From Mytilus californianus (taxonomy: Eukaryota), in the NCBI RefSeq assembly GCF_021869535.1, contig NW_026262679.1, positions 92,775,982 to 92,839,981 on the forward strand: 64,000 nucleotides of DNA, read 5' to 3'. The translations under genes were made by a program, and so were the position numbers. Positions 350 through 37,001 of the stretch are shown piece by piece. Position 1 is the stretch's first letter. The number at the start of each line of letters is the position of its first letter. Below the pieces are notes generated by a model that saw only the letters and a program-made list of their open reading frames with translations, ran no database searches and was not told where the DNA came from.

Positions 350-527
350 GCATACAAGTAGAAGAATTACATAATTTACTAAGTATACACGACATATTGA
401 CAAATGATAAATTCAAAATGGACGATATAAGAAACATTAAATTGACACCTGAACAGATGTTGCCTGCTGCTGTGTTCGGTCACTTGAGGAGGTCCCTAGA
501 GACATTCCTGAACCCAACTGACAGTTG
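350..527 (+). CDS. WD40-repeat gene exon (pre-WD region), ...IQVEELHNLLSIHDILTNDKFKMDDIRNIKLTPEQMLPAAVFGHLRRSLETFLNPTDSW
   Basis: Acceptor ttttcAG at 348-349 and donor GTAAGT at 528. Only one frame is open. The end phase matches the next exon. Confidence 0.7.
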
Positions 528-1004
528 GTAAGTCTTCTATATTTTCATAAAGGTGTAACGTTCAAGACAATGATTTGCTATCCTTTTTTCACCCATTAAT
601 TCTAAGTAAAATCAAAAGTCTTGAGATGTCAGTAACTCTTGAAATGAGTATTTTATCTTTTGAAGGAGTGATAATTGTAAATATTCTCAAAATGTTTTAG
701 TCGAAATCTTGTCCTTCTTTCCTTGTTTATAGCATCACAAAATGTAACTAATCACCATATTTTTTCTTGTGATGAGCAACCCTTCTATAGCCATCTGTTG
801 AGGATGAAAAGCTTACCCTTTTGGAGTGCCTTATTTCACCACCATGTTTCTTTGTGTGCATAATTTGTATTATGTTTTCATCCGTTTTCTGTAGTGTTTT
901 GAAAGCTGTTTTGTCTATTTTGTCCTTTTTTGTGGTACTGTCTGTCCTTTAACTTAAATGTGTGACAGCCTCATTGCTATATTCTTATGTTTTTATAATA
1001 ACAG

Positions 1005-1111
1005 GAACAGTAGACTAACACTGGCTCATAAAGACATAGAGGCTGCAGTGAGACAGAGGTACATGAAGGGTTCTTCAGACTTGGAAACTAAATACCATTC
1101 TCTGCTGGCAG
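1005..1111 (+). CDS. WD40-repeat gene exon: NSRLTLAHKDIEAAVRQRYMKGSSDLETKYHSLLAG
   Basis: Acceptor AG at 1003-1004 and donor GTAAGT at 1112. Phase is continuous with the flanking exons. Confidence 0.75.
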
Positions 1112-1777
1112 GTAAGTACATACAAAATATGTTATTTTTATTACCATATGCTAGCCTTCTAGGTTACCCAGTCATTATTCAACAGTGAAACAGATTAATT
1201 TGTCATCAATTCATGAATTTATTGTAAACTTCGAAATTTTCTTCAGGGGTGTATTTTTGCTAATATTCCCCCTTGTACATTTAATCTTAAAGGAGGATTA
1301 CAATAAGGAACTAAGAATTTATAGAAAACATGGAAATATAATCTCCCATAAAGGTTTTGTCCTAGAAATCTTAAAATTTTTACTCCTCAAATTTTTGAAT
1401 TGTTGACCTTTGAAGTTGTAAGAGTAGACAGCTCTGTTGTACAACACTACAACTTTTAATATGAATTAGTTAAATGACAAAATTTACATAAGTTAAGGTG
1501 CAATAAAAATCAGTAAAGGACAGCACTTTCCTCTCAAATACCAGAATAATTAGATTTGTTTCAGTGTGGATTGTTACAATTTCTAGATCACTGAACAGCA
1601 AGAGTAACAGAAAAATTTATAGAAAAACCAATATGAAACATCTTCTTTGGCAAAAAACTCCTACGAGGTGAAAATAATTTTTCCATTTTTATCTACTTTT
1701 ATATCACAAGTAACACTTGTTCTTGAAGTTGAAAAGTGATGCATTGATCTTAACTTTTATTTTTTGTATTTTGATAG

Positions 1778-1866
1778 GCTACTTTTTCCAACTGGCTGAT
1801 CCAGGCAAAACCAATAGTTTCAGTGGAAATGATCCTAGAGCCTTTACAGAACTGCCATTCCATTTG
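1778..1866 (+). CDS. WD40-repeat gene exon: YFFQLADPGKTNSFSGNDPRAFTELPFHL
   Basis: Acceptor tgatAG at 1776-1777 and donor GTGAGT at 1867. Phase 1 in, phase 0 out. Confidence 0.75.
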
Positions 1867-2269
1867 GTGAGTGTGTATTTTATAGTGGTCAAGTTTCAGA
1901 GAAACTAAATTTTATACATGCAGCAAAAGTATGGGCTATATTGCATTTATCTTGTCTATTTGTTCATCCAACAATTATTTCCGTCATTTTTTTCTCAGGT
2001 CATCCTGGACCGAATGACTTCATATTTAGTCAGCAGCTTGACTGTGATGAGTTGTAATGTGTTAGCATTTTTCACATAAGTTGGACACATACTATTACTT
2101 CTTGTTTTCCTATCCTTTAATTGTTCAATGTATTGAATATACTAAAATAAAATCTTCATACATTTCTTAGTACTACTGAATAGATTTTTTTCATGTTTGG
2201 TCAGCAGCTTAACAGTGATGAGTTGTAACATGTGAACATTATTCGGAATTGTTAGTTACCTACTTCCTG

Positions 2270-2350
2270 TTTGACAATACTTTGAATTACGAATGTTGGG
2301 TATGCTTAAAACAACAACAATTACTTTGAATTACGATTGTTGGGTATGCT
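2270..2350. repeat. Local tandem duplication of about 44 bp (two units) in an intron
   Basis: 'tttgaattacga(a/t)tgttgggtatgctta(a/g)aacaacaaca'. Confidence 0.6.
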
Positions 2351-2628
2351 TAGAACAACAACAACAGCATTCTTGTTTAATCTAAAACGGTTATTCAAAA
2401 TTAAGATTTGCTGCTCACTTCCAAAATTAAGTTTACATTAAATTTTCTTTACACTTAAACAAAAAGAAGACCTGTTTCAAAATATGAGGTCATACTCTCA
2501 TTTCAGTCTGCAGTAAGTCAAGAGAGATGAAATTAAAATTACACTGTTTTAATACTATGATATATAAAATGTTTTGTGTAACAATAATTTGCTGAACTTT
2601 TAATATGATGCTTCTTTTTATATTATAG

Positions 2629-2743
2629 GTTTATTGTGGTGAATTTAAAGAGCTACAACGTTTACTTTGTAATCTGAATTTCATACACGCCAAATGTCAG
2701 CTAGGATTGGCCACACATTTAATGGATGACTATCAAGATAAAG
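2629..2743 (+). CDS. WD40-repeat gene exon: VYCGEFKELQRLLCNLNFIHAKCQLGLATHLMDDYQDK
   Basis: Acceptor tattatAG at 2627-2628 and donor GTAAAA at 2744. The frame is open. Confidence 0.75.
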
Positions 2744-3689: not shown

Positions 3690-3795
3690 CACTGACAAAC
3701 AAAGCATCCGAGAGAGAACAGAACAAAATGATGAACACGGAGGAAGTCAAACAATACAAAATGTTTGTATCCAGACAGATACATGTATTGAATGG
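3690..3795 (+). CDS. WD40-repeat gene exon: ALTNKASEREQNKMMNTEEVKQYKMFVSRQIHVLNG
   Basis: Acceptor ttttcAG at 3688-3689 and donor GTATGT at 3796. Phase is consistent. Confidence 0.75.
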
Positions 3796-3877
3796 GTATG
3801 TAGATTAATTATCTCAGGGCTAGTCTATTAGAATGAATGTGAAATGATAGAAAGGGAATATAAGAATAAGAAGATGT

Positions 3878-4423: not shown

Positions 4424-4592
4424 ATATCCTGCATTGACTTGGCAGCAAGCTATCAATGAGCCTGACGCATCTAGAGTTCACAAGGATGCTATTGATAGTG
4501 GAGAGGTGACTAAGAGTCAAGGATACATGTCATGGAATAACAAACCAAACACAACTGATCCATGTTATATGACCATCAGTAATCTGCCTCAG
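4424..4592 (+). CDS. WD40-repeat gene exon: YPALTWQQAINEPDASRVHKDAIDSGEVTKSQGYMSWNNKPNTTDPCYMTISNLPQ
   Basis: Acceptor tttcAG at 4422-4423 and donor GTAATG at 4593. It lies inside track ORF 4407-4697. Confidence 0.8.
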
Positions 4593-4975
4593 GTAATGTT
4601 AAACTGGGCTATTGACCTTTTTATGCCCCACCTAGGGGCATTATATTTTCGGTCTATGTGTCTGTCCATATATTTTTTGTCTAGGAAGTTAATATAAGAT
4701 TATTAAACATTAGATAAAACTCAAAAGTTACTTTTAAGTAGAATTAAATGCAAGGTCTAACACGTGTATTTATTATCACATTTTTCGCAAGAGCTGCAAA
4801 TCAGAGCTTCCTGAAATTTTGCGTCAAGCATGTTTTGAGTAATCATTTGATAATTTGTGTACTCAGTCATTAGGGTCTATCAGTGACATTTAAATTGTTT
4901 AGTTAATTGTCAAAGGAAATTGAAGTCCTGTACAGGTGATTATCAATTATATGAATTTGTGATCTCTCCTCAGAG

Positions 4976-6757
4976 TTTTTATATGACCGCAAAAATTTTT
5001 GCGGTCGTATATTGGTATGACGTTGGCGTCATCGTCGTCGTTGTTGTCTTCGTCCTGCGTCATCCGAAGACACATTGGTTTTCGCACTCTAACTTTAGTT
5101 TAAGTGAATGGATCTCTATGAAATTTTACCATAAGGTTCAATACCACAAAAAGAAGGTTGGGATTGATTTTGGGGGTTATGGTACTAACAGTTAAGGAAT
5201 TAGGGGCCAAAAAGGGGCCAAAAATAAGCATTTTTGTAACTTCCAGACAAAACTTGTGTGTTAGTGTATGGATCTCTCTGACATTGTACCACAAGGTTCC
5301 ATATCACAAAGGGAATGCTGGGATTGATTTTGGGGGTAATTGCCTCAAAATATTAGGAATTAGGGGCCAAAAAAGGGGCAAAAAACAAGCATTTTTCTAG
5401 TTTCATGACAATAACTTGTGTGAAAGTGTATCCATCTTTCTGAAATTGTACTACAAGGTTCCATATCACAAAGGGAAAGCTGGGTTTGAGTTTGGGGGTA
5501 ATTGCCCGAAACGTTTAGGAATAAGGGGCCAAAAAGGGGCCAAAAATAAGCATTTTTCTAGTTTCCAGACAATAACTTGTGTTCAAGTGTATGGATCTCT
5601 CTGAAATTGTACTGCAAGGTACCATACCACAAAGGGAAGGCTGGGATTGAGTTTGGGGGTGATGAATCATAAGGGGGTTCAAAAAATTGGGGGGGGGGGG
5701 ATTTTTTTTTTTTCCTTTTTTTTTTCTTTTAAAATTTTCCATTTTAAGTTGGTTATTTCTGATTTATATTTAAAAGCAAATAACAATGATATGGTAGGAG
5801 ATACACACCAAACAGGATGTGTAAATTATTATATAATAAGTATTGTGCAATAGCAAGAAATTTTCAATTGCACAGTATTGCACAATAGCAAGAAATCTTC
5901 AATTGCACAGTATTGCGCAATAGCAAGAAATCTTTAATTGCACAGTATTGCGCAATAGCAAGAAATATCCAATAGCACAATATTGCGCAATAGCAAGAAA
6001 TTGTCAATTGTGCAGTATTGCGCAAAAGAAGATACTTCGTATAAATTGCTTATTTCTTGACCAATTTCAATGGGGTTTTATTCTTGAATTCTTGGGGTTC
6101 TTTAATATGCTGAATCTAACCGTGTATTAAGTTTTTGGATTTTGGGCCCCATTTTTAAATTGGTCCACATTGAGGTCCAAAGGGTCCAAAATTAAACTAA
6201 GTTTGATTTCATCAAAAATTGAATTCTTAGGGTTCTTTGATATGCTGAATCTAAACATGTATTTAGATTTTTGATTATGGGCCCAGTTTTCAAGTTGGTC
6301 CAAATCGGGGTCCAAAATTAAACTTTGTTTGATTTCAACAAAAATTGAATATATGGGGTTATTTGATATGCTGAATCTAACCATGTATTTAGATTTTTGA
6401 TTTTTGGGCCCCGTTATCATTTTTGTCCACATTGAGGTCAAAAGGGTCCAAAATTAAACTTTGTTTGATTTCATCAAAAATTGAATTCTTGGGGTTCTTT
6501 GATATGCTGAATCTAACCATGTATTTAGATTTTGGATATTGGACCATAATAGGTGAATGTCCAATTTAAAATTTTTAAGTTCTTAGACCACATTCATTCT
6601 GTGTCAGAAACCTATGCTGTGTCAAATATTTAATCACAATCCAAATTCAGAGCTGTATCAAGCTTGAATGTTGTGTCCATACTTGCCCCAACTGTTCAGG
6701 GTTCGACCCCTGCGGTCGTATCAAGCTGCGCCCTGCGGAGCATTTTATTTTTTATTT
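4976..6757 (+). mobile_element. Composite non-autonomous element, family A, copy 1. Its parts in order: hairpin head, GTC-rich microsatellite, roughly 146-bp satellite in 4 units, G/T homopolymer, 35-bp repeat array, roughly 135-bp satellite in about 4 units, conserved tail.
   Basis: Head palindrome 'gaccgcaaaaatttttgcggtcgtata'. The tail reads '...ccccaactgttcagggttcgacccctgcggtcgtatcaagctgcgccctgcggagcattttatt'. It shares the same ordered modules with 12493-14585 and 25882-29300. Confidence 0.8.
5843..6035. repeat. 35-bp tandem repeat (about 6 units), each unit near-palindromic. The same array occurs at 13388-13610 and 26793-27020.
   Basis: 'tattgcgcaatagcaagaaatcttcaattgcacag' is repeated directly with no spacers. 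Confidence 0.85.
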
Positions 6758-6778
6758 GTATATTATTTTTTTTAATAG

Positions 6779-6874
6779 CCAGTGACTTGTGTAGCTGTAT
6801 CCAAAGATAGCAGATACTTTGCCTGTGGTGGAATGGACTGTATGGTCAGACTGTATGATTTCAATACAGGAAAG
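6779..6874 (+). CDS. WD40-repeat gene exon, first clear WD repeat: PVTCVAVSKDSRYFACGGMDCMVRLYDFNTGK
   Basis: Acceptor ttaatAG at 6777-6778 and donor GTAAAT at 6875. It is 32 codons long and in phase 0. Confidence 0.8.
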
Positions 6875-8488: not shown

Positions 8489-8613
8489 GAGCTCCATACA
8501 TTTAGAGGTCATGCTAATGCTATCACCAGTGTGTGTTTTGTTGGACAGTCCATGTTATGTAGTGCTGGATTAGACAATGCTGTCAGTGTTTGGCATATAG
8601 ATCAAGGTCACAG
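8489..8613 (+). CDS. WD40-repeat gene exon: ELHTFRGHANAITSVCFVGQSMLCSAGLDNAVSVWHIDQGHR
   Basis: Acceptor ttttAG at 8487-8488 and donor GTACTT at 8614. It carries a GH...VW WD40 signature. Confidence 0.85.
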
Positions 8614-11311: not shown

Positions 11312-11461
11312 GATACATGTTTTGAGTCAGCACAATAGAAGAGTACAGTCAGTTGCCTCAGACAAGGCTGGAAAATTCATTGCATCAGCTTCATGGGATT
11401 GTACTGTGAAAGTATGGAATGCTGTTAAAGGGGACAAATCTTGTGAATTATTGGTTGGAAG
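11312..11461 (+). CDS. WD40-repeat gene exon: IHVLSQHNRRVQSVASDKAGKFIASASWDCTVKVWNAVKGDKSCELLVG
   Basis: Acceptor ttgtAG at 11310-11311 and donor GTAAGA at 11462. It falls inside track ORF 11271-11465 and contains the WD motif 'SWDCTVKVW'. Confidence 0.85.
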
Positions 11462-11917: not shown

Positions 11918-12023
11918 CCAAGTGAACTGTGTTGACTTCCACCCAGAAGGTCAGCTGATCGTTACGGGAAGCTGGGATGCAACACTGAAGATCTGGGATA
12001 TATTCCACAGAAAAAGAAAAGCT
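11918..12023 (+). CDS. WD40-repeat gene exon: QVNCVDFHPEGQLIVTGSWDATLKIWDIFHRKRKA
   Basis: Acceptor tttcAG at 11916-11917. The donor GTATGT at 12024 is assigned with less certainty. The WD motif is 'SWDATLKIWD'. Confidence 0.7.
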
Positions 12024-12492
12024 GTATGTATTGCATTGGATATTTAAGGATGTATTTCCATGTTTATAGGAATCTTGTAAAAACATAAACCAGATATTCA
12101 AGGGAATGGAAACATAATTAAAACATTGTGGGGGTATTTTAGATAATTTTGAAGACTTCTTTTACATTAGGGGTCCCTTAATTTAAGGTTTAGGGCAGGG
12201 CTTCCAAAATTATTTTTAGCCAGCCGGACATTTTATATATTATCCTGATTTTAATCCCTTAAGACTAAATAAATAAAAGGCAATTATGGTAATCAGTTGC
12301 CGAGTTGGCCATCCGAATGATTGACATTAAAAAAAAACCGATATTAAACTTTCTTTGATTCAAATTCGAAGTTCTGACATAAACTGTTAAATTGGCAGTG
12401 CATCATTTGAAGTGTGCAACATCAGCGTACTTATATCTGCTTAGACTCTTTATTTGTGCAAAATAACGTTGTCAAAAACTTTACTTTCGTTT

Positions 12493-12545
12493 TTATACGA
12501 CCGCAAAAATTAAAAATTTTTTGGTCGTATATTGGTATGACGTTG

Positions 12546-12577
<32 letters not shown>

Positions 12578-17197: not shown

Positions 17198-17317
17198 GTG
17201 TTACGTGGACACAAGACATCAGTCAGGGATGTAGCCTATTCTCCATCAGGACGTCACATTGCCTCGGCCTCTTTAGATGGTGATGTTAAACTCTGGTCAG
17301 CCTTCAATGGAACCCAG
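17198..17317 (+). CDS. WD40-repeat gene exon: VLRGHKTSVRDVAYSPSGRHIASASLDGDVKLWSAFNGTQ
   Basis: Acceptor tttcAG at 17196-17197 and donor GTAAAC at 17318. It is 40 codons long. Confidence 0.85.
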
Positions 17318-17760: not shown

Positions 17761-17859
17761 GTTGGAAATATCCAGGGTCACTCATTACCTATCAACAAAC
17801 TGACGTTCTCTCCATCTGGTAAAGAATTGATTACAGTTAGTGATGATCATAAAGTCAAG
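17761..17859 (+). CDS. WD40-repeat gene exon: VGNIQGHSLPINKLTFSPSGKELITVSDDHKVK
   Basis: Acceptor cttcAG at 17759-17760 and donor GTAATG at 17860. Confidence 0.85.
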
Positions 17860-18594: not shown

Positions 18595-18742
18595 GTATGG
18601 TCTGGTAACCTTGGGAAACCAGTACAATGTATTGGTATGGAGGAACATGGTGCAGCCATGTCAGTAGCACTTCACCCAGATTGTGATGTTGTATTTGTTG
18701 GATACCACAGTGGAAATATTAGAGCTTTTGACGTAATGACAG
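18595..18742 (+). CDS. WD40-repeat gene exon: VWSGNLGKPVQCIGMEEHGAAMSVALHPDCDVVFVGYHSGNIRAFDVMTG
   Basis: Acceptor ataaAG at 18593-18594 and donor GTAAAA at 18743. It lies within track ORF 18574-18825. Confidence 0.8.
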
Positions 18743-19190: not shown

Positions 19191-19294
19191 GATGGGAAAT
19201 TTTTGACGAAAAACTCCATACAGCTTCAGTTAGGTGTATCAAATATGTTGGAGATGGTATGGTAGTGGCAGGATCAGATGATAATACAATGACT
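19191..19294 (+). CDS. WD40-repeat gene exon: WEIFDEKLHTASVRCIKYVGDGMVVAGSDDNTMT
   Basis: Acceptor attgtAG at 19189-19190 and donor GTAAGT at 19295. Confidence 0.8.
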
Positions 19295-20720: not shown

Positions 20721-20878
20721 ATTACAAGTACAAAAGAATCTTTAGGAGGTATGACACTGACAAACTTCACCAAACCTGTATTATGTGTAGCACTTACCAA
20801 AAAGTTGATGGCTGTAGGATCTGAAGATTTTACTTGTACATTGTTTCCAGCACCAAAGGAAAAGGATTTATCAAAGAA
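20721..20878 (+). CDS. WD40-repeat gene exon: ITSTKESLGGMTLTNFTKPVLCVALTKKLMAVGSEDFTCTLFPAPKEKDLSKK
   Basis: Acceptor atttcAG at 20719-20720 and donor GTAAGC at 20879. Confidence 0.8.
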
Positions 20879-21313: not shown

Positions 21314-21419
21314 ATCAAAGCTCAAAGTTTTTTCAACTTTAACAGGCCATGTAGGACCAGTAACCAGCTGTACATTTAACCATGAAGGCTCCTTATTGGC
21401 AACAGCAAGCAGGGATGCA
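21314..21419 (+). CDS. WD40-repeat gene exon: SKLKVFSTLTGHVGPVTSCTFNHEGSLLATASRDA
   Basis: Acceptor tttgcAG at 21312-21313 and donor GTAAGT at 21420. It lies within track ORF 21264-21446. Confidence 0.85.
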
Positions 21420-22353: not shown

Positions 22354-22470
22354 AGTATAAGAATTTACCAGGTGACCTGGGAAACAGAACCACTTCTAAT
22401 GAATGTCCTGAGTGATTGTCATAAAGACTGGATAACTGGATGTCAGTGGTCAAATATAGCGGACTTCATA
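22354..22470 (+). CDS. WD40-repeat gene exon: SIRIYQVTWETEPLLMNVLSDCHKDWITGCQWSNIADFI
   Basis: Acceptor tctatcAG at 22352-22353 and donor GTAAGT at 22471. Confidence 0.85.
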
Positions 22471-22953: not shown

Positions 22954-23061
22954 GTGACTTCTTCTGTTGATTTCAACTTAAAGGTTTGGGATTCTGCAAC
23001 AGGAACAGAGAAATCAACACTAACAGGTCACATGGCCGGAATTAATGCTATATCCTATAGT
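22954..23061 (+). CDS. WD40-repeat gene exon: VTSSVDFNLKVWDSATGTEKSTLTGHMAGINAISYS
   Basis: Acceptor ttttcAG at 22952-22953 and donor GTAAGT at 23062. Confidence 0.85.
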
Positions 23062-24467: not shown

Positions 24468-24624
24468 TATGGTTGTATAGTGTCCTGCAGTAGTGATGGA
24501 GCAGTCAAAGTTTGGTCACAGAAAGGTACAGAGATCACAACACTGTATGGACATACACAGAGAGTCAATGGATGTGATATGATTGTCAAAACAAGCAAAG
24601 ATGAGACAGAAGAGGAAGAAGAGG
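24468..24624 (+). CDS. WD40-repeat gene exon: YGCIVSCSSDGAVKVWSQKGTEITTLYGHTQRVNGCDMIVKTSKDETEEEEE
   Basis: Acceptor tctatAG at 24466-24467 and donor GTAAAT at 24625. It lies within track ORF 24480-24728. Confidence 0.85.
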
Positions 24625-25350
24625 GTAAATATTTTAACACTACTGTTTGTCCAGGGATCTCAAAAAAGCTTTCTTTCAAAATTCAAGAATCTTTGCGTTC
24701 ATTTATTATTGAGATTGTTGCACAATGAGCAACAGTGTGTGGTTGGTTATTGTGGTTTCAGGAAATGCTGAAGACAAAAAATGCCACCATAGTTTAAAAT
24801 ACAAGTTTTAATTTTTGCGAAAACTAATCCTGTTGCACTTTTTGCAATTATCAAAACATTACAAAAATGTCTGTGTTAACAGTATTGTACTATAAATAAC
24901 AAACAAGATAAAAAGAATAGTATAGTACTTTTAAATTTCATTTAGGTATAAATATTTATTCACTTTGTTATCAGAAATATTTTTTCTTCAATTCTTTGCA
25001 AACTGCATTTTTCAATCATAACAATCGATTGTTTTAAGGCACTGAAATATGTAGGCATAAATATAGATGTTGTCATGACACACGTGCAGGCAATATTATT
25101 ATAAAGATATAAAGATCAATTGAAATTAATTAATACTAAATTTCATTGAAACCACTTTATTGTGTCACCTGGCAGTGTCCAGCTGGGGTGATTCAGGGAT
25201 TTCACCTGTAGTAGTCTTGTTTCAGCATTTGTGTCACATTTTAATCCAATTCTCATTGAAAACTGTTAAACAGAATCCTTCAAACTTGCACACATTTCTC
25301 TACATGACTTGAAGTTGTAATGAATATCAATTTGCCATTTTTTTTTAAAG

Positions 25351-25499
25351 ATGCAAACACATCCTGGGCAGATATGGTAGAATCAGCAGAGGCTGCTAAG
25401 AAGGCAAAGAAATCCAAACGTCCAGGTGTGAGGATGGATGATGTACTTGTAGCTACTTGTGGAGATGACGGTACAGTCAGGGTCTGGCAACCATTGCAG
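25351..25499 (+). CDS. WD40-repeat gene exon: ANTSWADMVESAEAAKKAKKSKRPGVRMDDVLVATCGDDGTVRVWQPLQ
   Basis: Acceptor tttaaAG at 25349-25350 and donor GTAAAA at 25500. Confidence 0.85.
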
Positions 25500-25881
25500 G
25501 TAAAATAATGTGCATTTTTTTTTTAGTGTGTTTTTGTCAATTTTAAAGATGTAGGCAAAGGTGGTACCTTATTCAGAGTATCAGATGAGGTTTGTGTGTT
25601 TTTTGTCCCCAGTGCAAGGCTGTGAAGTGGACAGAGAAATACTGGGCTTCCATATGTGCATTTGTGTGTTAGTCTGGTCTTGTAAGCACTCTCATGTGTA
25701 CAATTCTTCAGAATTTTTATGAAATTTGAATCAAAGGTTGATATCAGGAATGTCTCAGATAAGTTCTAAAATAGGTGTGGATCATCTATTTTTATCTCTC
25801 GTGGTTTTGATATGAGTTTGTATTTTCCACAGCTTAGGTTTATTTTTTATAATTGTCTTGTAATTGTTTGTCTGTACATCT

Positions 25882-25957
25882 GTCCTTTTTATACGACCGC
25901 AAAAATTGAAAATTTTTTGGTCGTATATTGGTATGACGTTGGCATCGTCGTCGTCGA

Positions 25958-25988
<31 letters not shown>

Positions 25989-28900
25989 TGGCGTCGTCCG
26001 AAGACACATTGGTTTTCGCACTCTAACTTTAGTTAAAGTGAATGGATCTCCATGAAATTTTACCATAAGGTTCAATACCACGAAAGGAAGGTTGGGATTG
26101 ATTTTGGGGGTTATGGTACCAACAGTTAAGGAATTAGGGGCCAAAAAGGGGCCAAAAATAAGCATTTTTGTAACTTCCAGACAATAACTTGTGTGTAAGT
26201 GTATGGATCTCTCTGACATTGTACCACAAGGTTCCATATCACAAAGGGAAGGCTGTAATTGATTTTGGGGGTAATTGCCTCAAAATTTTAGGAATTAGGG
26301 GCCAAAAAAGGGGCAAAAAACAAGCATTTTTCTAGTTTCATGACAATAACTTGTGTGTAAGTGTTTGGATATTTCTGAAATTGTACTACAAGGTTCCATA
26401 TCACAAAGGGAAAGCTGGAATTGAGTTTGGGGGTAATTGCCCGAAACGTTTAGGAATTGGGGGCCAAAAAGGGGCCAAAAATAAGCATTTTTCTAGTTTC
26501 CAGACAATAACTTGTGTTCAAGTGTATGGATCTCTCTGAAATTGTACTGCAAGGTACCATACCACAAAGGGAAGGCTGGGATTGAGTTTGGGGGTGATGA
26601 ATCATAAGGGGGTTCAAAAAATTTGGGGGGGGATTTTTTTTTTTCTTTTTTTTTCTTTTTTTCCTTTTTTTTTTTCTTTTAAAATTTTCCATTTTAAGTT
26701 GGTTATTTCTGATTAATATTTAAAAGCAAATAATAATGATATGGTAGGAGATACACACCAAACAGGATGTGTAAATTATTATATAATAAGTATTGTGCAA
26801 TAGCAAGAAATTTTCAATTGCACAGTATTGCACAATAGCAAGAAATCTTCAATTGCACAGTATTGCGCAATAGCAAGAAATCTTCAATTGCACAGTATTG
26901 CGCAATAGCAAGAAATATCCAATAGCACAATATTGTGCAATAGCAAGAAATTGTCAATTGTACAGTATTGCACAATAGCAAGAAATATTCAATTGCACAG
27001 TATTGTGCAAAAGAAGATACTTCGTATAAATTGCTTATTTCTTGATCCATTTCAATGGGGTTTTATTCTTGAATTCTTGGGTATTTAATATGCTGAATCT
27101 AACCGTGTATTAAGTTTTTGGATTTTGGGCCCCGTTTTTAAATTGGTCCACATTGAGGTCCAAAGGGTCCAAAATTTAACTTTGTTTGATTTCATCAAAA
27201 ATTGAATTATTGGGGTTCTTTGATATGCCGAATCTAACCGTGTATTTAGATTCTTAATTTTTGGTTCCGTTTTCAAATTGGTCTACATTAAGGTCAGAAG
27301 GGTCCAAAATTAAACTTAGTTTGATTTTAACAAAAATTGAATTTTTAGGGTTCTTTGATATGCTGAATCTAAACATGTATTTAGATTTTTGATTATGGGC
27401 CCAGTTTTCAAGTTGGTCCAAATCGGGGTCCAAAATTTAACTTTGTTTGATTTCAACAAAAATTGAATATATGGGGTTCTTTGATATGCTGAATCTAACC
27501 ATGTATTTAGATTTTTGATTTTTGGGCCCCGTTATCAACTTTGTCCACATTGAGGTCAAAAGGGTCCAAAATTAAACTTTGTTTGATTTCATCAAAAATT
27601 GAATTCTTGGGGTTCTTTGATATGCTGAATCTAACCATGTATTTAGATTTTTTATTTGTGGACCCGCTATCAAATTGGTTCATATTGAGGTCAAAAGGGT
27701 CCAAAATTAAACTTTGTTTGATTTCATCAAAAATTGAATTATTGGGGTTCTTTGATATGCCAAATCTAACCGTGTATTTAGATTTTTAATTTTGGGTCCC
27801 GTTTTTAAATTGGTCTACATTAAGGTCCAAAGGGTCCAAAATTAAACTTAGTTTAATTTTAACAAAAATTGAATTCTTGGGGTTCTTTGATATGCTGAAT
27901 CTAAACATGTGTTTAGATTTTTGATTATGGGCCCAGTTTTCAAGTTGGTCCAAGTTGGGGTCCAAAATTAAACTTTGTTTTATTTCAACAAAAATTGAAT
28001 ATATGGGGTTCTTTGATATGCTGAATCTAAACATGTATTTAGATTTTAGATTTTTGGCCCAGTTTTCAAGTTGGTCCAAGTTGGGGTCCAAAATTAAACT
28101 TTGTTTGATTTCAACAAAAATTGAATATATGGGGTTCTTTGATATGCTGAATCTAACCATGTATTTAGATTTTTTATTTGTGGGCCCGCTATCAAATTGG
28201 TTCATATTGAGGTCAAAAGGGTCCAAAATTAAACTTTGTTTGATTTCATCAAAAATTTCATTATTGGAGTTCTTTGATATGCCAAATCTAACCGTGTATT
28301 TAGATTTTTAATTTTGGGTCCCGTTTTTTAAATTGGTCTACATTAAGGTCCAAAGGGTCCAAAATTAAACTTAGTTTGATTTTAAGAAAAATTGAATTTT
28401 TGGGGTTCTTTGATATGCTGAATCTAAACATGTGTTTAGATTTTTGATTATGGGACCAGTTTTCAAGTTGGTCAAAGGTGGGGTCCAAAATTAAACTTTG
28501 TTTGATTTCAACAAAAATTGAATATATGGGGTTCTTTGATATGCTGAATCTAAACATGTATTTAGATTTTAGATTTTTGGCCCAGTTTTCAAGTTGGTCC
28601 AAATTGGGGTCCAAAATTAAACTTTGTTTGATTTCAACAAAAATTGAATATATGGGGTTCTTTGATATGCTGAATCTAACCATGTATTTAGATTTTTTAT
28701 TTTGTGGGCCCTCTATCAAATTGGTTCATATTGAGGTCAAAAGGGTCCAAAATTAAACTTTGTTTGATTTCATCAAAAATTGAATTATTGGGGTTCTTTG
28801 ATATGTCAAATCTAACCGTGTTTTAAGATTTTTAATTTTGGGTCCCGTTTTTTAAATTGGTCTACATTAAGGTCCAAAGGGTCCAAAATTAAACTTAGTT

Positions 28901-29300
28901 TGATTTTAACAAAAATTGAATTCTTGGGGTACTTTGATATGCTGAATCTAAACATGTGTTTAGATTTTTGATTATGGGACCAGTTTTCAAGTTTGTCCAA
29001 GTTGGGGTCCAAAATTAAACTTTGATTGATTTCAACAAAAATTGAATATATGGGGTTCTTTGATATGCTGAATCTAACCATGTATTTTGATTTTGGACTT
29101 TGGACCATAATAGGTAAATTAAAAAAATTGAAGTTCTTAGACCACATTCTTTCTGTGTCAGAAACCTATGCTGTGTCAAATATTTAATCACAATCCAAAT
29201 TCAGAGCTGTATCAAGCTTGAATGTTGTGTCCATACTTGCCCCAACTGTTCAGGGTTCGACCTCTGCGGTCGTATCAAGCTGCGCCCAGCGAAGCATTTT
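25882..29300 (+). mobile_element. Composite element family A, copy 3. Its 135-bp satellite array is expanded to about 16 units (27040-29110).
   Basis: It has the same head, (GTC)n, 146-bp repeats, G/T tract, 35-bp repeats and tail as copies 1 and 2. Only the 135-bp array length differs. Confidence 0.8.
27040..29110. repeat. Tandem satellite with a period of about 135 bp and about 16 units, internal to family-A copy 3
   Basis: Unit 'ttgaattcttggggttctttgatatgctgaatctaaccatgtatttagattt..gggccc.gtttt.aaattggtc.acattgaggtccaaagggtccaaaattaaactttgtttgatttcatcaaaaa' recurs head-to-tail. The track ORFs on both strands here are artefacts. Confidence 0.85.
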
Positions 29301-29312
29301 ATTGTTTTTTAG

Positions 29313-29524
29313 GCTAATGAGCTTGCCAGTATGTCAGGACACGATGACAGAGTTCTCAGTGTATCATCTGACGCACAGGGAAAATTGTGTACAAGCAGTC
29401 TAGACAAGTCTGTCCGTCTGTGGGCTCCACAATTGTCAACAACAGCATCAGATACAGGACATAATGGATCAGTGACATTTGTCATTTCTATAGAAAATGG
29501 AGCAGGATTACTGACTGGAAGCAG
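29313..29524 (+). CDS. WD40-repeat gene exon: ANELASMSGHDDRVLSVSSDAQGKLCTSSLDKSVRLWAPQLSTTASDTGHNGSVTFVISIENGAGLLTGS
   Basis: Acceptor ttttttAG at 29311-29312, directly after the tail of a composite element, and donor GTATGA at 29525. Confidence 0.85.
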
Positions 29525-30489: not shown

Positions 30490-30553
30490 GGATGGTGTTG
30501 TAAAGTTCTGGAGCATAGACAATGGCGTATTTGTTTGTGAGAGATCTATGCAG
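30490..30553 (+). CDS. WD40-repeat gene exon: DGVVKFWSIDNGVFVCERSMQ
   Basis: Acceptor ttgaAG at 30488-30489 and donor GTAAAC at 30554. Phase 2 in, phase 0 out. Confidence 0.8.
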
Positions 30554-30861: not shown

Positions 30862-30980
30862 GTTTCCAAGAAGTCTGTTAATGCTGCTTTATTCCAAATT
30901 GACGATCATGTTATAACAGCAGGTGAAGATGGACAAATTGTTTCTTGGTCTGTCACAAGAGATGGCATGAAAATCAAGAG
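30862..30980 (+). CDS. WD40-repeat gene exon: VSKKSVNAALFQIDDHVITAGEDGQIVSWSVTRDGMKIK
   Basis: Acceptor tgacAG at 30860-30861 and donor GTATGT at 30981. Confidence 0.8.
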
Positions 30981-32068
30981 GTATGTTTTTACAATCATGT
31001 AACTTTAATGATGACACCATATCACCAGGAGGTTTCTAGTTTTATCTCTGTTTATCTCTGTCTGTTATTAAGTAATTTCCCTTTGTAAGTGTTTTACAAG
31101 TGTTTAACTCTGACATCAGGAACATAGGCACATGTAAATCTTTGTCATCATTTCGTGTCCATTGTTTTTCTGTCTGTCCTTTGACCATTTTACTCTTCAA
31201 TTCTTCTGAAACCACATTGGCATTTTAAAATTAAGGTAGTAATGATATTTAAAAGATCCTCTACAAATATAAAGCGTCATTAAATGGAATGAAAATCTGT
31301 ACACAAGAGAAAGTCTTTAATTCTGATTAGCCAATTTAAAAAATCTTTGCATCTGAAACTACAAGGCAAAATGTTTTGAAATTTCTTTGGATTGATAAAA
31401 ACAACATCTGTAGCTTGAAGAAATTAGCTCTTTTTGCCAGGGGACTCTACTAGGAACCCCAAGTTTATTGTATTGAGCTATTGTCTAGTATGTAGGTGTT
31501 CCATGGGTAGTGATAGTTACAGATTGTGTTGGTAGATGAATTTACAATTTGTACTCATTTTTCATGAAAATGTTAGCTGTCTTTACAGAAAGAATCATTA
31601 TTAACAAACTAAAAATTACTACAAAAATCTTGGTAAGAAAAAACAATATTTCTCTACAATTGTTGTAAGGGGACAACCATTTGATTTTCTGGGGGTGGGA
31701 AGGAGAATTTTGAAAATGAATAACTAGGCCTAGTAAGAACTGAAAATATATAAGTATGCACAAGACAGGATGAAATTGAATGTTCTGCAACACAAAATGC
31801 AGGAAACAAATGTGTATAAAAATGAGAGGAAAAAAATAAGCATGCATAGAAGCAGATAAAAATAATAGATCAATCTGGGGAAATATCCTCCTGCCTCCCC
31901 TCCCCAGAATATCTAATGGTCACCCCCTACAATGAATCATACTTTAAAATTAAGAAATATATAGCTTCTATTCAATCATCCAAATTTACCTTGAAATTGG
32001 GTGAAGAACAAAAGGTTTTTGTTATGCTATTGTCTATCTACAAAATATAAATTTTGTCTTTATTTTAG

Positions 32069-32206
32069 AATTGAGAAGTCCTCTGTAATAGAAAATGGTT
32101 CAACACCTGTGACTTGTCTGCTACAGTCTACATCCACAGCTCACTTCTTCTCTGGCAATTGGAAAGGGGAAGTAACTGTATATAAGATCAACAGACAGGT
32201 TGAGAG
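32069..32206 (+). CDS. WD40-repeat gene exon: IEKSSVIENGSTPVTCLLQSTSTAHFFSGNWKGEVTVYKINRQVE
   Basis: Acceptor attttAG at 32067-32068 and donor GTACGG at 32207. It lies within track ORF 32001-32219. Confidence 0.8.
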
Positions 32207-33553: not shown

Positions 33554-33677
33554 AAAATGTATAGTGGATCAAGCAGACTGGATATTAAGTTTGTACCAGA
33601 CAAAGTCTAAACCTGGACATCTCTATGCTACCACTGCTAGTGGAATGGTGATTGAAATGAAAATTACAATGGAGAAG
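33554..33677 (+). CDS. WD40-repeat gene exon: KCIVDQADWILSLYQTKSKPGHLYATTASGMVIEMKITMEK
   Basis: Acceptor gttacAG at 33552-33553 and donor GTAAAG at 33678. Confidence 0.8.
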
Positions 33678-33894
33678 GTAAAGCTTACCAATTACATATT
33701 TTCTTATTTATCTGGACGCAGGTTCTAACAAGGATTGGTATGTTATCACACAAGAACAAATTTGATGTGTAAATCTTTGATTAGAATTTCCTGTTTGTCC
33801 AACATTTTTATTTTCTGCACAGATTTTTGGGAATGTGATAATAAACCTGTATAATTTTGTTCAGTTGCTTTTAAAATTAAACAAAGTTTTCTTT

Positions 33895-34495
33895 TTATGC
33901 CCCCATTGTAGCGGAGGGGCATTAAGTTTACCTAGCCATTGTCAACCTTGTCAGTCTGTTTTCTATTCTCTAACTTTAGTTTGCCTCAACGAAATGTTGT
34001 GAAACTCATACACAATGCTTATTACCACAAAACACGATCAAGTTTGAATTTTGGTGGCATCACTTATACTGTTTTAAAGTTATGCCCCTTTACAAAAGGA
34101 AAAATTGCTGAATTTTTTGTTTCCGTTCTCTAGCTTAAGTTTCCCTCAACCAAATGTTATGAAACTTATACACAATGCTTATTACCACATAATACAGATC
34201 AAGTTTAAATTTGGTGATGTTACTTTAACAGTTCCAGAGTTATGCCAGTTTACAAATGGAAAAATTGCTGAATTTTTTCGTTTCCGTTCTCTTACTTATG
34301 TTTACCTGAACTAAATGTTATGAAACTTATACACAATGCTTATTACTACAAAATACAGATCAAGTACAAATTTAGGTAGGATCACTTTTACCGTTCTTCA
34401 GTTATGTCCCTTTAAAACTTTATATGATATGCAAGCGGGGTCATCATCTGTGTTCCATGGACACATTCCCCATTTATTGTTTTCTATGGTATTCA
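33895..34495 (+). mobile_element. Composite element family B: head 'ttttatgcccc..gtagcggaggggcattaag' (hairpin), three units of about 165 bp, tail '...gggtcatcatctgtgttccatggacacattccccatttatt'
   Basis: Unit 'gtt..cgttctctaactttagtttgcctcaac.aaatgttatgaaact.atacacaatgcttattaccacaaaacacagatcaagtttgaattttggtggcatcactt.tac.gtt.t..agttatgcccctttacaaa.ggaaaaattgctgaattttttgtttcc'. Related copies occur at 42730-43760 and 60465-61090. Track ORFs 33939-34545 are artefacts. Confidence 0.7.
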
Positions 34496-34583
34496 TTTAT
34501 AGGTATATGATTGTGAACATGATTTATTTAATCAAAAAGTTTTAAGAACATACTATGTATCATTCTTGTAACTGTTCTTTCAG

Positions 34584-34757
34584 AAATGCAACATACAAGT
34601 TCACAGCAGGATTTCAATTCCAAACACAGTTGACACAGATGTAGTCATACACAAGAAACAACCAGTTTGGGTACACAGCATTGCTGTTGATAGTAAAGTA
34701 CATATAGTTGGAGACTCCAAGGGACAAATAACCAACTCAACTAAGTCTACAACAAGG
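34584..34757 (+). CDS. WD40-repeat gene exon: KCNIQVHSRISIPNTVDTDVVIHKKQPVWVHSIAVDSKVHIVGDSKGQITNSTKSTTR
   Basis: Acceptor ctttcAG at 34582-34583 and donor GTAGGT at 34758. It is 58 codons long. Confidence 0.8.
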
Positions 34758-36426
34758 GTAGGTATACAAATTTAAAAAGCATTCATGCTCAGAATAATAT
34801 TTTTCACTATTTATTTTTTATCCATCCAATCTGGGTCTATGTCATCACTCTGGATTTTAAGATGGTGAAGAAATCTGTACTATTTCTTCTGTTTCGAATT
34901 TTGTCAACTTAAAACTTGAAATTGACTCTTAGATATTGGCACACATCAAACTCATTTCATCAACTTTAAACAAATTAATGTCTTTCTTTACTTAATGCAA
35001 ATGTGTATATCAAGATTTTTGTCTGCCTCCATACCTCACAGAAAGACTAAAGTATGATTTGAAATAATGCACACAAATCTTCAAATCTTTCCATTTATAA
35101 TAGTGATTTCGATCACTTTAATTGTCATAAGTACTTAAGAAGACATACACAATTTCCTCAGAATTTTGGGAGCAGAGAGTTATAAAACAGTTTAAGGGTG
35201 ACAATTCGATCTGAGTTATTGCAAAAAAGAACAGTTGATATTTTTAAACTAAAGAAAGGTTTATTTTTTTGTTCATCCAAAACACTTTTCTGTATTTACC
35301 TTCATCAAAAATGCTTAAACCCAAACATAATTAAGCCAAAGATGTATAAATACCATAAAACGTGAGGAGCTTTATGACTAAAAAAGATCTTAATAATAGC
35401 AACACACATTGCTCAGTCAAATTTAATGTACCAAGCATTGAACTTTAGTAACTGATTTCTGTAAATGAATTGTCCTGATGACGTCTGCCTGCCAGGAGAA
35501 AGCATGTCGACTAAGTTCAATAAAAGTATTGTCAAATAAAGGTATTTTAAGTTTTGCAATAGTTTGCATTAAGGTATCCACTTTAGGAGACTCTATTGAA
35601 AGTAAACACAACAGAGTTAATTTAATATTTACGGAAATCATAAGATTAACATGCAATTATACCTTACTGGCTGTTGATCAAGTAATAACAGCCTTTGAAC
35701 AACTGTTTGAAAATAGACCCTAGTTGAAAAATGAATTTATAAGACAACATTGTCATATGATCAAAACAAAACTTGATGATGTATTGATTTACTAGCCTAG
35801 AAAAAGGACTGTGATCTTTGATGAGAAAAAAACAAGTTAATAGCTAATCTGAAACTGATCAACTAGTAAGAGACAGTCTCAAAATGAATCAATGGATCCA
35901 ATATGAACAAAAACCATCCACAGTATATAAATAGAGTGCTAGCTCAAGAACCTTTAAACTAGTGTTTCAAGATAGTTCATTCAAGGACCAAACTAGTCAC
36001 ACTCTAGATTGGTTGAGAAGCAAATTTAGATTAAATTTAAAACATCACTCTCTTTATCTGTAGTAGTCAAGTATCAAGAACCATAAATTATTATTAATTA
36101 CCATAGTATGCCATAAGAGTTTTCTTATTCTCCAAGAAAGCATTTTATGACCCTTTCACTTTCCTGATATATTCTTTTGCATAATCAATTTTTATTAAAC
36201 TAGAGTTTGACCCAGATTTCATGGTTCACTAGACATAGAAATGTAATAGTTCTTGCAAGGCGTGATGTCCTAGGAACACATTTTCTTGCTCATTAACTAT
36301 TTAATTACTGGTAAAGGGTATCATTGATATCAAGATCAAATTCTTTTCTTTTCTTTTATTTTTTAAAAAAATATTTAGTTTTTGTTTGTTTGTTTATTAC
36401 TGTATTTTGTTGACTTAAATTTCCAG

Positions 36427-36528
36427 GTGCATGGTGGTGCAGTGACAGCTGTTGATATGACAGATGATCTTATTTTTACTGCTTCTCATGATAGGACAGT
36501 CAAAGTGTGGAATAAAGATATGAAACAG
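36427..36528 (+). CDS. WD40-repeat gene exon: VHGGAVTAVDMTDDLIFTASHDRTVKVWNKDMKQ
   Basis: Acceptor tttccAG at 36425-36426 and donor GTAATT at 36529. It lies within track ORF 36382-36573. Confidence 0.85.
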
Positions 36529-36860
36529 GTAATTTTTATAATTAAGAGATACTATTTGAAGCAAATTTTGTAATGAAAATATTTTTTTACACTTTTCTGA
36601 ATTTTACTGATAAAATAGACTTAGTTTTTTGCAGTTAATATTTACATACAGTCTTGGAATAAATTTTTAAGACATAAATAACCTTCGTGATTTATGAAAC
36701 TTGGACAGAAGCTTCTTCAAGGTCAATTCTTCTTAACTAGGACAGGCTCATCTTTACACTGGAAACTCACTGGGCCTCCTGTTATTAATTTCTATCTCAA
36801 CTGAATATAAACTGTACTTGTTTGCATTTGTTAATAACTGATTTTATGATTCTGTTATAG

Positions 36861-37001
36861 GTTGGTTTATTCTTCTGTCCAGCACCAGTTACCACAATGA
36901 CAATTGTGAAAATTTTACGGAATCTATATTCAGTTGTCTCTCTTGCCTGTGGTGATGAATTGGGTAACATTCATTACTTAACCTGGAGAGGAGGCATATG
37001 A
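36861..37001 (+). CDS. WD40-repeat gene terminal coding exon: VGLFFCPAPVTTMTIVKILRNLYSVVSLACGDELGNIHYLTWRGGI*
   Basis: Acceptor gttatAG at 36859-36860 and in-frame TGA at 36999-37001. An AT-rich 3' UTR follows. Confidence 0.8.
   Translation, partial: VGLFFCPAPVTTMTIVKILRNLYSVVSLACGDELGNIHYLTWRGGI

What the first reader, a model, noticed from the sequence alone, without database searches (positions are those of the whole stretch)
350..37001. A 36.6-kb locus encodes the 3' part of a giant WD40 protein with at least 20 repeats, probably TEP1-like
Twenty-eight exons were reconstructed solely from GT-AG sites and phase continuity. Every junction closes the frame. Most WD repeats are split one per exon or exon pair, with GH...WD signatures throughout, for example 'SWDCTVKVWN', 'SWDATLKIWD', 'LDGDVKLWS', 'DGAVKVWS', 'DGTVRVWQ', 'DKSVRLWA', 'DGVVKFWS' and 'DRTVKVWN'. 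About 20 or more repeats, preceded by a non-WD region ('VYCGEFKELQRLLCNLNFIHAKCQLG...'), fit telomerase protein component 1 (TEP1) or a NACHT-WD family member. The N-terminal half (TROVE/NACHT, if it is TEP1) would be upstream of the window. An acidic and basic low-complexity insert ('KDETEEEEE...DANTSWADMVESAEAAKKAKKSKRPG') lies between two repeats.
Basis: partly seen in the sequence, partly recalled or inferred. Interest (0 to 1): 0.5.

Follow-up and report, generated by a model that had tools for sequence, protein, structure and literature searches.

The report
3' half of a mollusc TEP1 gene

Summary
An independent reconstruction, guided by an intronless transcript from a related species, gives the same span (350-37001): 28 exons, all GT-AG, frame closed, TGA stop, 1192 codons. 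It is 71% identical to that transcript, with no indel on any of the 27 junctions. Synonymous sites are saturated (pS 0.77, pN 0.18), so the gene is under purifying selection.

The TEP1 reading is supported:
- Pfam's TEP1-specific propeller models pass their cut-offs.
- The non-WD helical part alone finds TEP1/TEP1-like proteins of 2300-2750 aa from scallop to fish.
- The whole model aligns colinearly to the C-terminus of scallop TEP1-like (49%, 1178 bits) and fish TEP1 (29%, 8e-140), both with TROVE domains.

Repeat count: 20 WD units have support and 21 (3 x 7 blades) is likely.

One correction: the charged insert is a disordered loop inside repeat 13, not between two repeats.

TROVE, vWA, TIR-like NADase and NACHT lie upstream, off the window.

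Verdict: an ordinary new member of a known family, of low interest. Side notes are a satellite-carrying repeat element that ends 9-10 nt from one acceptor site, and a spermine-oxidase-like neighbour gene.

The parts
350..527 (+). exon 1 in window (enters in phase 1; end of winged-helix / start of helical domain)
   Evidence: Acceptor TTTTCAG|GC at 350; aligns to P0001 673-733.
1005..1111 (+). exon 2 (helical domain)
   Evidence: GT-AG junctions with the best fit to P0001.
1778..1866 (+). exon 3 (helical domain)
2629..2743 (+). exon 4 (helical domain; 'VYCGEFKELQRLLCNLNFIHAKCQLG')
   Evidence: Pfam APAF1_C helical domain 42.1 bits (cut-off 22.8) over residues 111-220 of the non-WD part.
3690..3795 (+). 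exon 5 (helical domain)
4424..4592 (+). exon 6 (linker up to the first blade)
6779..6874 (+). exon 7 (WD unit 1)
8489..8613 (+). exon 8 (WD units 1/2)
11312..11461 (+). exon 9 (WD units 2/3; 'SWDCTVKVWN')
11918..12023 (+). exon 10 (WD unit 4; 'SWDATLKIWD')
17198..17317 (+). exon 11 (WD units 4/5)
17761..17859 (+). exon 12 (WD units 5/6)
18595..18742 (+). exon 13 (WD units 6/7)
19191..19294 (+). exon 14 (WD units 7/8)
20721..20878 (+). exon 15 (WD units 8/9). The junction 14 choice is the least certain in the model.
   Evidence: the best pair 19294|20721 keeps the length of P0001, and the runner-up 19298|20737 scores only 4 lower.
21314..21419 (+). exon 16 (WD units 9/10)
22354..22470 (+). exon 17 (WD units 10/11)
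22954..23061 (+). exon 18 (WD units 11/12)
24468..24624 (+). exon 19 (WD units 12/13 and the acidic half of the loop insert)
25351..25499 (+). exon 20 (basic half of the loop insert and the rest of WD unit 13)
29313..29524 (+). exon 21 (WD units 13-15); its acceptor lies 9-10 nt after the end of repeat-element copy C
30490..30553 (+). exon 22 (WD unit 15)
30862..30980 (+). exon 23 (WD units 15/16)
32069..32206 (+). exon 24 (WD units 16/17)
33554..33677 (+). exon 25 (WD units 17/18)
34584..34757 (+). exon 26 (WD units 18/19, degenerate blades)
   Evidence: hhalign is weak or absent for these units; the ortholog AF2 model shows 4 strands for each.
36427..36528 (+). exon 27 (WD units 19/20; 'DRTVKVWN')
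   Evidence: Pfam TEP1_C.
36861..37001 (+). exon 28 (WD units 20/21, C-terminus, TGA stop at 36999-37001)
   Evidence: The C-terminus coincides with those of scallop and fish TEP1. Pfam TEP1_C scores 92.4 bits against a cut-off of 32.
24597..25427 (+). charged loop insert of WD unit 13 (KDETEEEEE | intron 19 | DANTSWADMVESAEAAKKAKKSKRPG)
   Evidence: Disordered (pLDDT < 50) and placed between strands a and b of one blade in the ortholog model. A Trp motif is conserved among invertebrate TEP1s and is absent in the fish sequences.

Best explanation
Window 350-37001 (+ strand) is the 3' part of the single-copy-looking ortholog of TEP1 (telomerase protein component 1, the vault minor protein) in a mollusc, probably a bivalve. 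It comprises the last 28 exons, 1192 codons, roughly the C-terminal 45-48% of the protein.

Shown here:
- The exons encode the end of the winged helix.
- They encode an APAF-1-like helical domain of about 250 residues.
- They encode about 21 WD40 units, consistent with three seven-bladed propellers, ending in the TEP1-specific C-terminal motif.
- The gene is intact and under purifying selection.

Inferred from orthologs: the missing 5' part (TROVE, vWA/DUF5920, DUF4062 TIR-like NADase, NACHT NTPase) lies upstream of the window.

How it works rests on the literature, not on tests here. TEP1 sits in vault particles, and in mouse it is required for vault RNA stability and for vault RNA association with the particle (PMC2193651). 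Its DUF4062/TeTIR domain is an active NADase in a STAND architecture (10.64898/2026.05.01.722283; 10.64898/2026.09.21.753143). By analogy with APAF-1, the WD40 region encoded here is the presumed sensor or auto-inhibitory module, whose ligand binding would license NACHT oligomerisation and NADase activation. The authors themselves mark that last step as speculative.
For: Gene model: 28 exons, all GT-AG, closed frame, TGA stop. It is 71.2% identical to the intronless transcript L001/P0001, with no indel on any junction; pS is 0.77 (saturated) and pN is 0.18.

Family: PF25047 scores 234.7 bits against a cut-off of 89. PF25048 scores 92-101 bits against 32. APAF1_C scores 42.1 bits against 22.8. 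phmmer of the non-WD 254 aa against 1.84 billion representatives gives top hits of 2300-2750 aa with the match at about residues 1350-1750. Eight of the ten hits looked up are named TEP1 or TEP1-like, in eight animal lineages. BLASTP is colinear to the C-terminus of scallop TEP1-like (49% identity, 1178 bits, query 20-1188 to subject 1512-2699 of 2701). It is also colinear to the C-terminus of fish TEP1 (29%, E = 8e-140, query 1-1188 to subject 1327-2468 of 2470). Both have TROVE at more than 330 bits.

Upstream architecture in P0001: DUF5920, DUF4062, AAA_16/NACHT, HTH_NWD1.

Repeats: 18 of 21 units reach at least 96.7% hhalign probability, against less than 1% for the helical controls. The AF2 model of ortholog P0003 (pLDDT 81.4) shows the four-strand blade pattern for units 2-19.
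Against: Nothing contradicts the explanation, but there are limits.
- The TROVE, NADase and NACHT parts are not in the window, so they are inferred from orthologs only.
- No RNA-seq from this species was available. The junctions rest on consensus sites and on a 71%-identical transcript from another species.
- Junction 14 has a near-equal alternative.
- Unit 21 has no profile or structural support of its own.
- A repeat element ends 9-10 nt upstream of the exon 21 acceptor, which could in principle disturb splicing of this allele.
- The sensor mechanism of the WD40 region is speculation in the literature and was not demonstrated.
Confidence: 0.95

Rival explanations
1. It is a NACHT-WD paralog of the NWD1/NWD2 type (DUF4062-NACHT-WD40 without TROVE), not TEP1.
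For: NWD proteins share the DUF4062-NACHT-helical-WD40 layout. P0001's winged helix matches Pfam HTH_NWD1 at 29.5 bits. WD40 similarity is promiscuous: many bacterial WD40 proteins score above 400 bits.
Against: The non-WD region's best hits are TEP1s of 2300-2750 aa, not NWDs. The alignment runs end to end into the TEP1-specific C-terminus, and PF25048/PF25047 are above their cut-offs. The near-ortholog P0001 has DUF5920 (the vWA part that follows TROVE) upstream of DUF4062, which the preprint 10.64898/2026.09.21.753143 describes as particular to TEP1.
Confidence: 0.02
2. It is a TEP1-derived pseudogene or a non-functional allele, for example with exon 21 splicing crippled by the repeat-element insertion.
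For: Repeat-element copy C ends 9-10 nt before the exon 21 acceptor, and copy A ends about 29 nt before the exon 7 acceptor. No expression data exist for this species.
Against: All 28 exons are open, all 27 introns have consensus-like sites and polypyrimidine tracts, and there are no frameshifts. pN of 0.18 against saturated pS indicates long-term constraint. The C-terminus is intact.
Confidence: 0.03
3. It is an APAF-1-like apoptosome protein (NB-ARC-helical-WD40).
For: Pfam APAF1_C matches the helical part. APAF-1 chains are among the solved structures hit, at 144 bits.
Against: The APAF-1 match covers only some WD units (query 291-454) and is far weaker than the TEP1 matches at 1178 bits. 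There are about 21 units here, more than the two WD40 propellers described for APAF-1 (10.64898/2026.05.01.722283). The ortholog carries DUF4062 rather than CARD.
Confidence: 0.005

Closest known systems
TEP1 / telomerase protein component 1 (vault minor protein), e.g. Mizuhopecten yessoensis XP_021378535.1 and Erpetoichthys calabaricus XP_051779112.1
   Same: The helical domain and about 21 WD units are colinear right up to the shared C-terminal motif (QxGxF.C..PV...GD.LGN...L.W). Identity is 49% to scallop and 29% to fish. The same Pfam TEP1 propeller families match.
   Different: Only the 3' part is in the window. The invertebrate proteins, including this one, have a longer charged loop with a conserved Trp in blade 13, which the fish sequences lack. 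This exact sequence is not in the protein collection; the best hit is 65% identical by BLASTP, or 71% in a global alignment.
NWD1 / NWD2 (DUF4062-NACHT-WD40 STAND proteins)
   Same: Same STAND layout, with an effector domain, a NACHT domain, a winged helix, an APAF-1-like helical domain and WD40 repeats (10.64898/2026.05.01.722283).
   Different: They have no TROVE/vWA N-terminal extension. The TEP1-specific C-terminal propeller signature found here belongs to TEP1, and the nearest relatives of the non-WD region are TEP1s.
APAF-1
   Same: A helical domain (Pfam APAF1_C, 42 bits) followed by WD40 propellers. This is the working model for how a WD40 sensor controls a STAND NTPase (10.64898/2026.05.01.722283).
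   Different: APAF-1 has CARD and NB-ARC instead of a TIR-like NADase and NACHT. It has two propellers rather than about three. Sequence similarity is limited to generic WD units.

Membership tests
TEP1 (telomerase protein component 1) | TEP1-specific propeller signatures (Pfam PF25047 Beta-prop_TEP1_2nd, PF25048 Beta-prop_TEP1_C) above the curated cut-offs | tested here: met
   PF25047 scores 234.7 bits against 89. PF25048 scores 101.5 bits on the draft and 92.4 bits on the refined C-terminus, against 32.
TEP1 (telomerase protein component 1) | The non-repeat region is closest to bona fide TEP1s (a test free of generic WD40 similarity) | tested here: met
   phmmer of the 254 non-WD residues against 1.84 billion representatives. 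The top hit is scallop TEP1-like at 296 bits and 53% identity. Eight of the ten top hits looked up are named TEP1 or TEP1-like; one is unnamed and one is a Heterostelium 'WD40 repeat-containing protein'.
TEP1 (telomerase protein component 1) | End-to-end colinearity with the C-terminal half of full-length, TROVE-containing TEP1, ending at the same C-terminus | tested here: met
   Query 20-1188 aligns to 1512-2699 of 2701 (scallop). Query 1-1188 aligns to 1327-2468 of 2470 (fish). Both partners have TROVE at 354 and 332 bits.
TEP1 (telomerase protein component 1) | About 21 WD40 repeats after an APAF-1-like helical domain (the figure of 21 for human TEP1 is from my memory of its database annotation and was not checked here) | tested here: met
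   APAF1_C scores 42.1 bits. 18 of 21 units are supported by hhalign. Units 18-19 are supported by the ortholog AF2 model. Unit 21 rests only on PF25048 and spacing. That gives 20 supported and 21 likely.
TEP1 (telomerase protein component 1) | N-terminal TROVE + vWA (RNA-binding module) | not testable with these tools
   It lies upstream of the window. The 71%-identical transcript P0001 reaches only the DUF5920/vWA part. The scallop and fish orthologs have TROVE.
TEP1 (telomerase protein component 1) | DUF4062/TeTIR NADase domain followed by a NACHT NTPase | not testable with these tools
   Off the window. In P0001, DUF4062 scores 60.5 bits. The NTPase region matches AAA_16 (31.2 bits), NACHT (19.2 bits) and nSTAND1, all below their cut-offs. 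The RWG motif is visible in 'VDLRWGVTEEE'.
TEP1 (telomerase protein component 1) | Association with vault particles and vault RNA; NADase activity | not testable with these tools
   These are biochemical properties, known for mammalian TEP1 (PMC2193651; 10.64898/2026.05.01.722283).
NWD1/NWD2 | DUF4062 at or near the N-terminus, with no TROVE/vWA extension | tested here: not met
   Tested on the near-ortholog only: P0001 has DUF5920 upstream of DUF4062. The closest full-length relatives carry TROVE.
APAF-1 | CARD + NB-ARC, with two WD40 propellers | tested here: not met
   There are about 21 units, not two propellers' worth. The ortholog has DUF4062/NACHT. APAF-1 chains match only generic WD units at 144 bits.

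The most novel reading that the evidence does not exclude
Two small readings remain open. (1) The charged, Trp-bearing loop in blade 13 ((S/N/D)W motif flanked by acidic and basic runs) is conserved from molluscs to amphioxus but lost in fish TEP1. It could be a functional docking or ligand-sensing element of the presumed WD40 sensor in invertebrate vault TEP1. (2) The satellite-carrying repeat element that ends 9-10 nt before the exon 21 acceptor may now supply the branch point of intron 20. That would be a tolerated, or even co-opted, mobile-element contribution to splicing of an essential-looking exon.
Probability: 0.1. Interest if true: 0.3.

Novelty: new member of a known kind. Interest (0 to 1): 0.1.

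Why it matters
It matters little in itself: this is a correct annotation of a conserved gene in a genome that seems to lack an annotated proteome in the collections searched. Its modest value has two parts. First, TEP1 has just been recast as a STAND-type TIR-like NADase whose WD40 region is the presumed but uncharacterised sensor, so well-resolved invertebrate WD40 regions (21 units, with a lineage-specific conserved loop) add comparative material. Second, it shows that the first-stage reader can reconstruct a 28-exon gene by eye.

Tried and rejected
- The word-index homology search with the non-WD 254 aa returned a single 140-aa fragment. I replaced it with the exhaustive phmmer search.
I predicted the 866-aa ortholog P0003 instead and projected it through the alignment. 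It does not cover units 20-21.
- P0189 (1152 aa) was considered as a structural proxy for the whole WD region, but it is only 32% identical to scallop TEP1 and diverges after about 900 residues.
- Foldseek against afdb50 was unavailable.
- dN/dS could not be given as a ratio because synonymous sites are saturated.
- The PDB holds no TEP1 WD region; only generic WD40 proteins and APAF-1 match.
- No tRNA and no Rfam family at gathering score were found anywhere in the window.
- Pfam finds nothing in the ORF-like frames of the intronic repeat. It also finds nothing in the minus-strand ORFs at 18356-18670, 31542-31847, 25782-26237 and 45448-46077, so there is no sign of nested or antisense genes.
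- I rejected a bacterial WD40 or contaminant origin. The bacterial hits reflect generic WD40 similarity, and this locus has 27 spliceosomal introns.

Full report
OBSERVATION. The window is AT-rich (about 32% GC) with only short open frames, as expected for intron-rich eukaryotic DNA. I rebuilt the gene independently. A draft concatenation of exon-like frames retrieved a 1872-aa protein, P0001, at 65% identity and 100% coverage. P0001 is encoded on a 5671-nt intronless Logan transcript contig (L001, run SRR30826392). tblastn of P0001 against the window gave 28 colinear blocks from P0001 residue 673 to 1867. For each of the 27 gaps I enumerated GT/GC donors and AG acceptors that keep the frame, and scored the junction peptide against P0001. 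Every best solution is a GT-AG pair with a good consensus, such as CAG|GTAAGT and a pyrimidine-rich tract followed by CAG or TAG.

The assembled model has 28 exons, starts at the acceptor at 350 (phase 1), ends with TGA at 36999-37001, and encodes 1192 residues. The model is 71.2% identical to P0001 over 1184 aligned residues, with no indel on any junction. Nucleotide identity in aligned codons is 69%, pS is 0.77 (saturated) and pN is 0.18, which means long-term purifying selection on an intact gene. Exons are 40.8% GC and introns 31.6%. Only junction 14 (19294|20721) has a near-equal alternative.

WHAT IT IS. Pfam's two TEP1-specific models pass their curated cut-offs. Beta-prop_TEP1_2nd scores 234.7 bits against 89, and Beta-prop_TEP1_C scores 92-101 bits against 32. 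Because WD40 similarity is promiscuous (bacterial WD40 proteins score above 400 bits), I tested the 254 non-WD residues (exons 1-6) alone. They match Pfam APAF1_C, the APAF-1 helical domain, at 42.1 bits against 22.8. An exhaustive phmmer search against 1.84 billion cluster representatives gave 914 hits. The best were proteins of 2300-2750 aa with the match at about residues 1350-1750. Of the ten best that I looked up, eight are named TEP1 or TEP1-like, one is unnamed, and one is a Heterostelium 'WD40 repeat-containing protein'. The named ones come from Mizuhopecten (53% identity, 296 bits), Anneissia, Branchiostoma, Lytechinus, Priapulus, Mya, Tachypleus and Erpetoichthys/Polypterus.

The whole model aligns in one colinear BLASTP alignment to scallop TEP1-like: 49% identity, 1178 bits, query 20-1188 to subject 1512-2699 of 2701. 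It also aligns to fish TEP1: 29% identity, E = 8e-140, query 1-1188 to subject 1327-2468 of 2470. Both partners carry TROVE (354 and 332 bits) and the same TEP1 propeller families. Upstream of the part homologous to the window, P0001 shows the following:
- DUF5920, at 37.5 bits.
- DUF4062, at 60.5 bits, with the 'RWG' motif.
- A STAND NTPase region, matching AAA_16, NACHT and nSTAND1 (all below their curated cut-offs).
- An NWD1-like winged helix.

REPEAT COUNT AND ANATOMY. After the helical domain, 938 residues can be cut into 21 units of about 42 residues. Support for these units comes from several sources:
- An HMM built from nine canonical units recovers 14 units above every score from 20 shuffles.
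- Profile-profile comparison (hhalign) of ortholog sub-alignments of each unit against a pooled canonical WD profile gives at least 96.7% probability (E at most 4e-10) for 18 units. Unit 19 reaches 18.8%. Units 18 and 21 score at the level of five helical-domain controls, which are below 1%.
- Projected onto my units, units 2-19 show the four-strand blade pattern, including units 18 and 19. Units that show three strands have merged strands in DSSP.
- Unit 20 has hhalign support (97.7%). Units 20-21 together are covered by PF25048.

So 20 units are supported and 21 (3 x 7 blades) is likely. This agrees with 'at least 20'.

Twenty-two exons encode the 21 units, at a mean of 42.7 aa per exon. Most introns lie late in a unit, between the 'WD' strand and the next 'GH'. 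The acidic/basic segment (KDETEEEEE / DANTSWADMVESAEAAKKAKKSKRPG) spans the exon 19/20 junction. In the ortholog model it is a disordered loop (pLDDT < 50) between the first and second strands of unit 13, so it lies inside one repeat, not between two. A Trp-containing motif in this loop is conserved in mollusc, echinoderm, amphioxus and priapulid TEP1s but is missing from the fish sequences.

HOW IT LIKELY WORKS. This rests on the literature and on inference.
- In mouse, Tep1 is required for vault RNA stability and for its association with the vault particle (PMC2193651).
- Two 2026 preprints show that the DUF4062 domain of human TEP1 is an active TIR-like NADase. It sits at the effector position of a STAND protein (TROVE-vWA-TeTIR-NACHT-helical-WD40).
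- The same preprints propose, by analogy with APAF-1, that the WD40 region senses an unknown signal and controls NACHT oligomerisation (10.64898/2026.05.01.722283; 10.64898/2026.09.21.753143).
- TEP1 density was not resolved in their vault cryo-EM, and the PDB holds no TEP1 WD region.

The part encoded in this window is therefore the presumed sensor or regulatory module. Nothing in my data tests that function.

RIVALS.
- An NWD1/NWD2-type paralog is excluded in practice by the TEP1-only nearest relatives of the non-WD region, the TEP1 C-terminal signature, and DUF5920 upstream of DUF4062 in the near-ortholog.
- APAF-1 shares only the helical-domain family and generic WD units.
- A pseudogene is unlikely given the intact frame, the consensus splice sites and the low pN. 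However, a repeat element very close to two acceptors leaves a small possibility of impaired splicing, which only RNA-seq can exclude.

SURROUNDINGS.
- Three same-orientation copies of a composite repeat lie in introns 6, 10 and 20, at about 4975-6749, 12484-14585 and 25880-29303. Each has a 5' palindrome, internal arrays of about 35-, 161- and 135-nt units, and a conserved 3' end. Copy C is enlarged by satellite expansion.
- The 3' end of copy C lies 9-10 nt before the exon 21 acceptor, and the 3' end of copy A lies about 29 nt before the exon 7 acceptor.
- The 3' terminus of the element recurs at 41315-41563 and 60200-60374.
- No Pfam domain, tRNA or Rfam family was found in the introns or on the opposite strand.
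- Downstream on the + strand, from about 54.5 kb, is a flavin amine oxidase gene (Pfam Amino_oxidase 133 bits). Its long exon is 74% identical to scallop 'spermine oxidase-like' and 90% identical to unnamed transcript-derived proteins.
- The scallop protein's longest contig is listed as 3,163,219 bases, the same figure as for scallop TEP1-like. This suggests conserved linkage.
- The hit pattern points to a bivalve, or at least a mollusc, whose proteome is not in the collections searched.

VERDICT. This is an ordinary ortholog of a known gene: a new member of a known kind, of low interest.

Noticed in passing
window 4975-6749, 12484-14585, 25880-29303 (also 41315-41563 and 60200-60374): A composite non-coding repeat element occurs three times, in the same orientation, inside TEP1 introns 6, 10 and 20. 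It has a 5' palindrome (TATACGACCGCAAAAAT...ATTTTTGCGGTCGTATA), internal tandem arrays of about 35-, 161- and 135-nt units, and a conserved 3' end (...GCGAAGCATTTTATT). Copy C is about 1.3 kb longer through expansion of the 135-nt satellite. It resembles satellite-carrying Helitron/Helentron-like non-autonomous elements reported in bivalves; that resemblance is from memory and was not tested.
   Followed up: partly
window 29290-29313 and 6745-6779: The 3' end of the repeat element lies only 9-10 nt upstream of the exon 21 acceptor and about 29 nt upstream of the exon 7 acceptor. The branch point of intron 20 must therefore lie inside the element. This may reflect insertion into T-rich tracts. 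The effect on splicing is unknown without RNA-seq.
   Followed up: partly
window ~54540-58551 (+), probably continuing further downstream: A neighbouring gene encodes a flavin amine oxidase (spermine-oxidase-like). The first coding exon has the motif VVIIGGGISG, and a 313-codon open frame lies at 57613-58551. It is 74% identical to scallop spermine oxidase-like. That scallop protein's longest contig is listed as 3,163,219 bases, the same figure as for scallop TEP1-like, which suggests conserved linkage.
   Followed up: partly
window 24597-24624 + 25351-25427 (model residues ~776-812): The charged loop in WD unit 13 carries a conserved (S/N/D)-W motif in mollusc, echinoderm, amphioxus and priapulid TEP1s, but it is absent from the three fish TEP1 sequences aligned. 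It is predicted to be disordered in the ortholog model.
   Followed up: partly
window 6779-37001, junctions 6-27: Intron positions are quasi-periodic relative to the WD units. 22 exons encode 21 units, and most introns lie 31-37 residues into a unit of about 41 residues (after the 'WD' strand and before the next 'GH'). 14 of the 22 junctions from 6 to 27 are in phase 0.
   Followed up: yes
window 15546-16229 (intron 10); 33936-34376, 42764-43163 and 60407-61080: There are further repeat families. One is a tandem array of about 192 nt in intron 10. Another is a dispersed short element whose frames read '...NVMKLIHNAYYHKTQIKFEFWWHH...', present in intron 25 and twice downstream of the gene.
   Followed up: no
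window 45448-46077 (-): This is the longest open frame outside the two genes (210 codons, Ser/Lys/Arg-rich). It has no Pfam match and may be an exon of an unrecognised gene or just chance.
   Followed up: partly
L001 1-45: The related species' transcript contig begins with an in-frame TGA, and the called protein starts at a GTG. P0001 is therefore a truncated or partly mis-assembled TEP1 transcript that lacks the TROVE region. It should not be read as a short isoform.
   Followed up: partly
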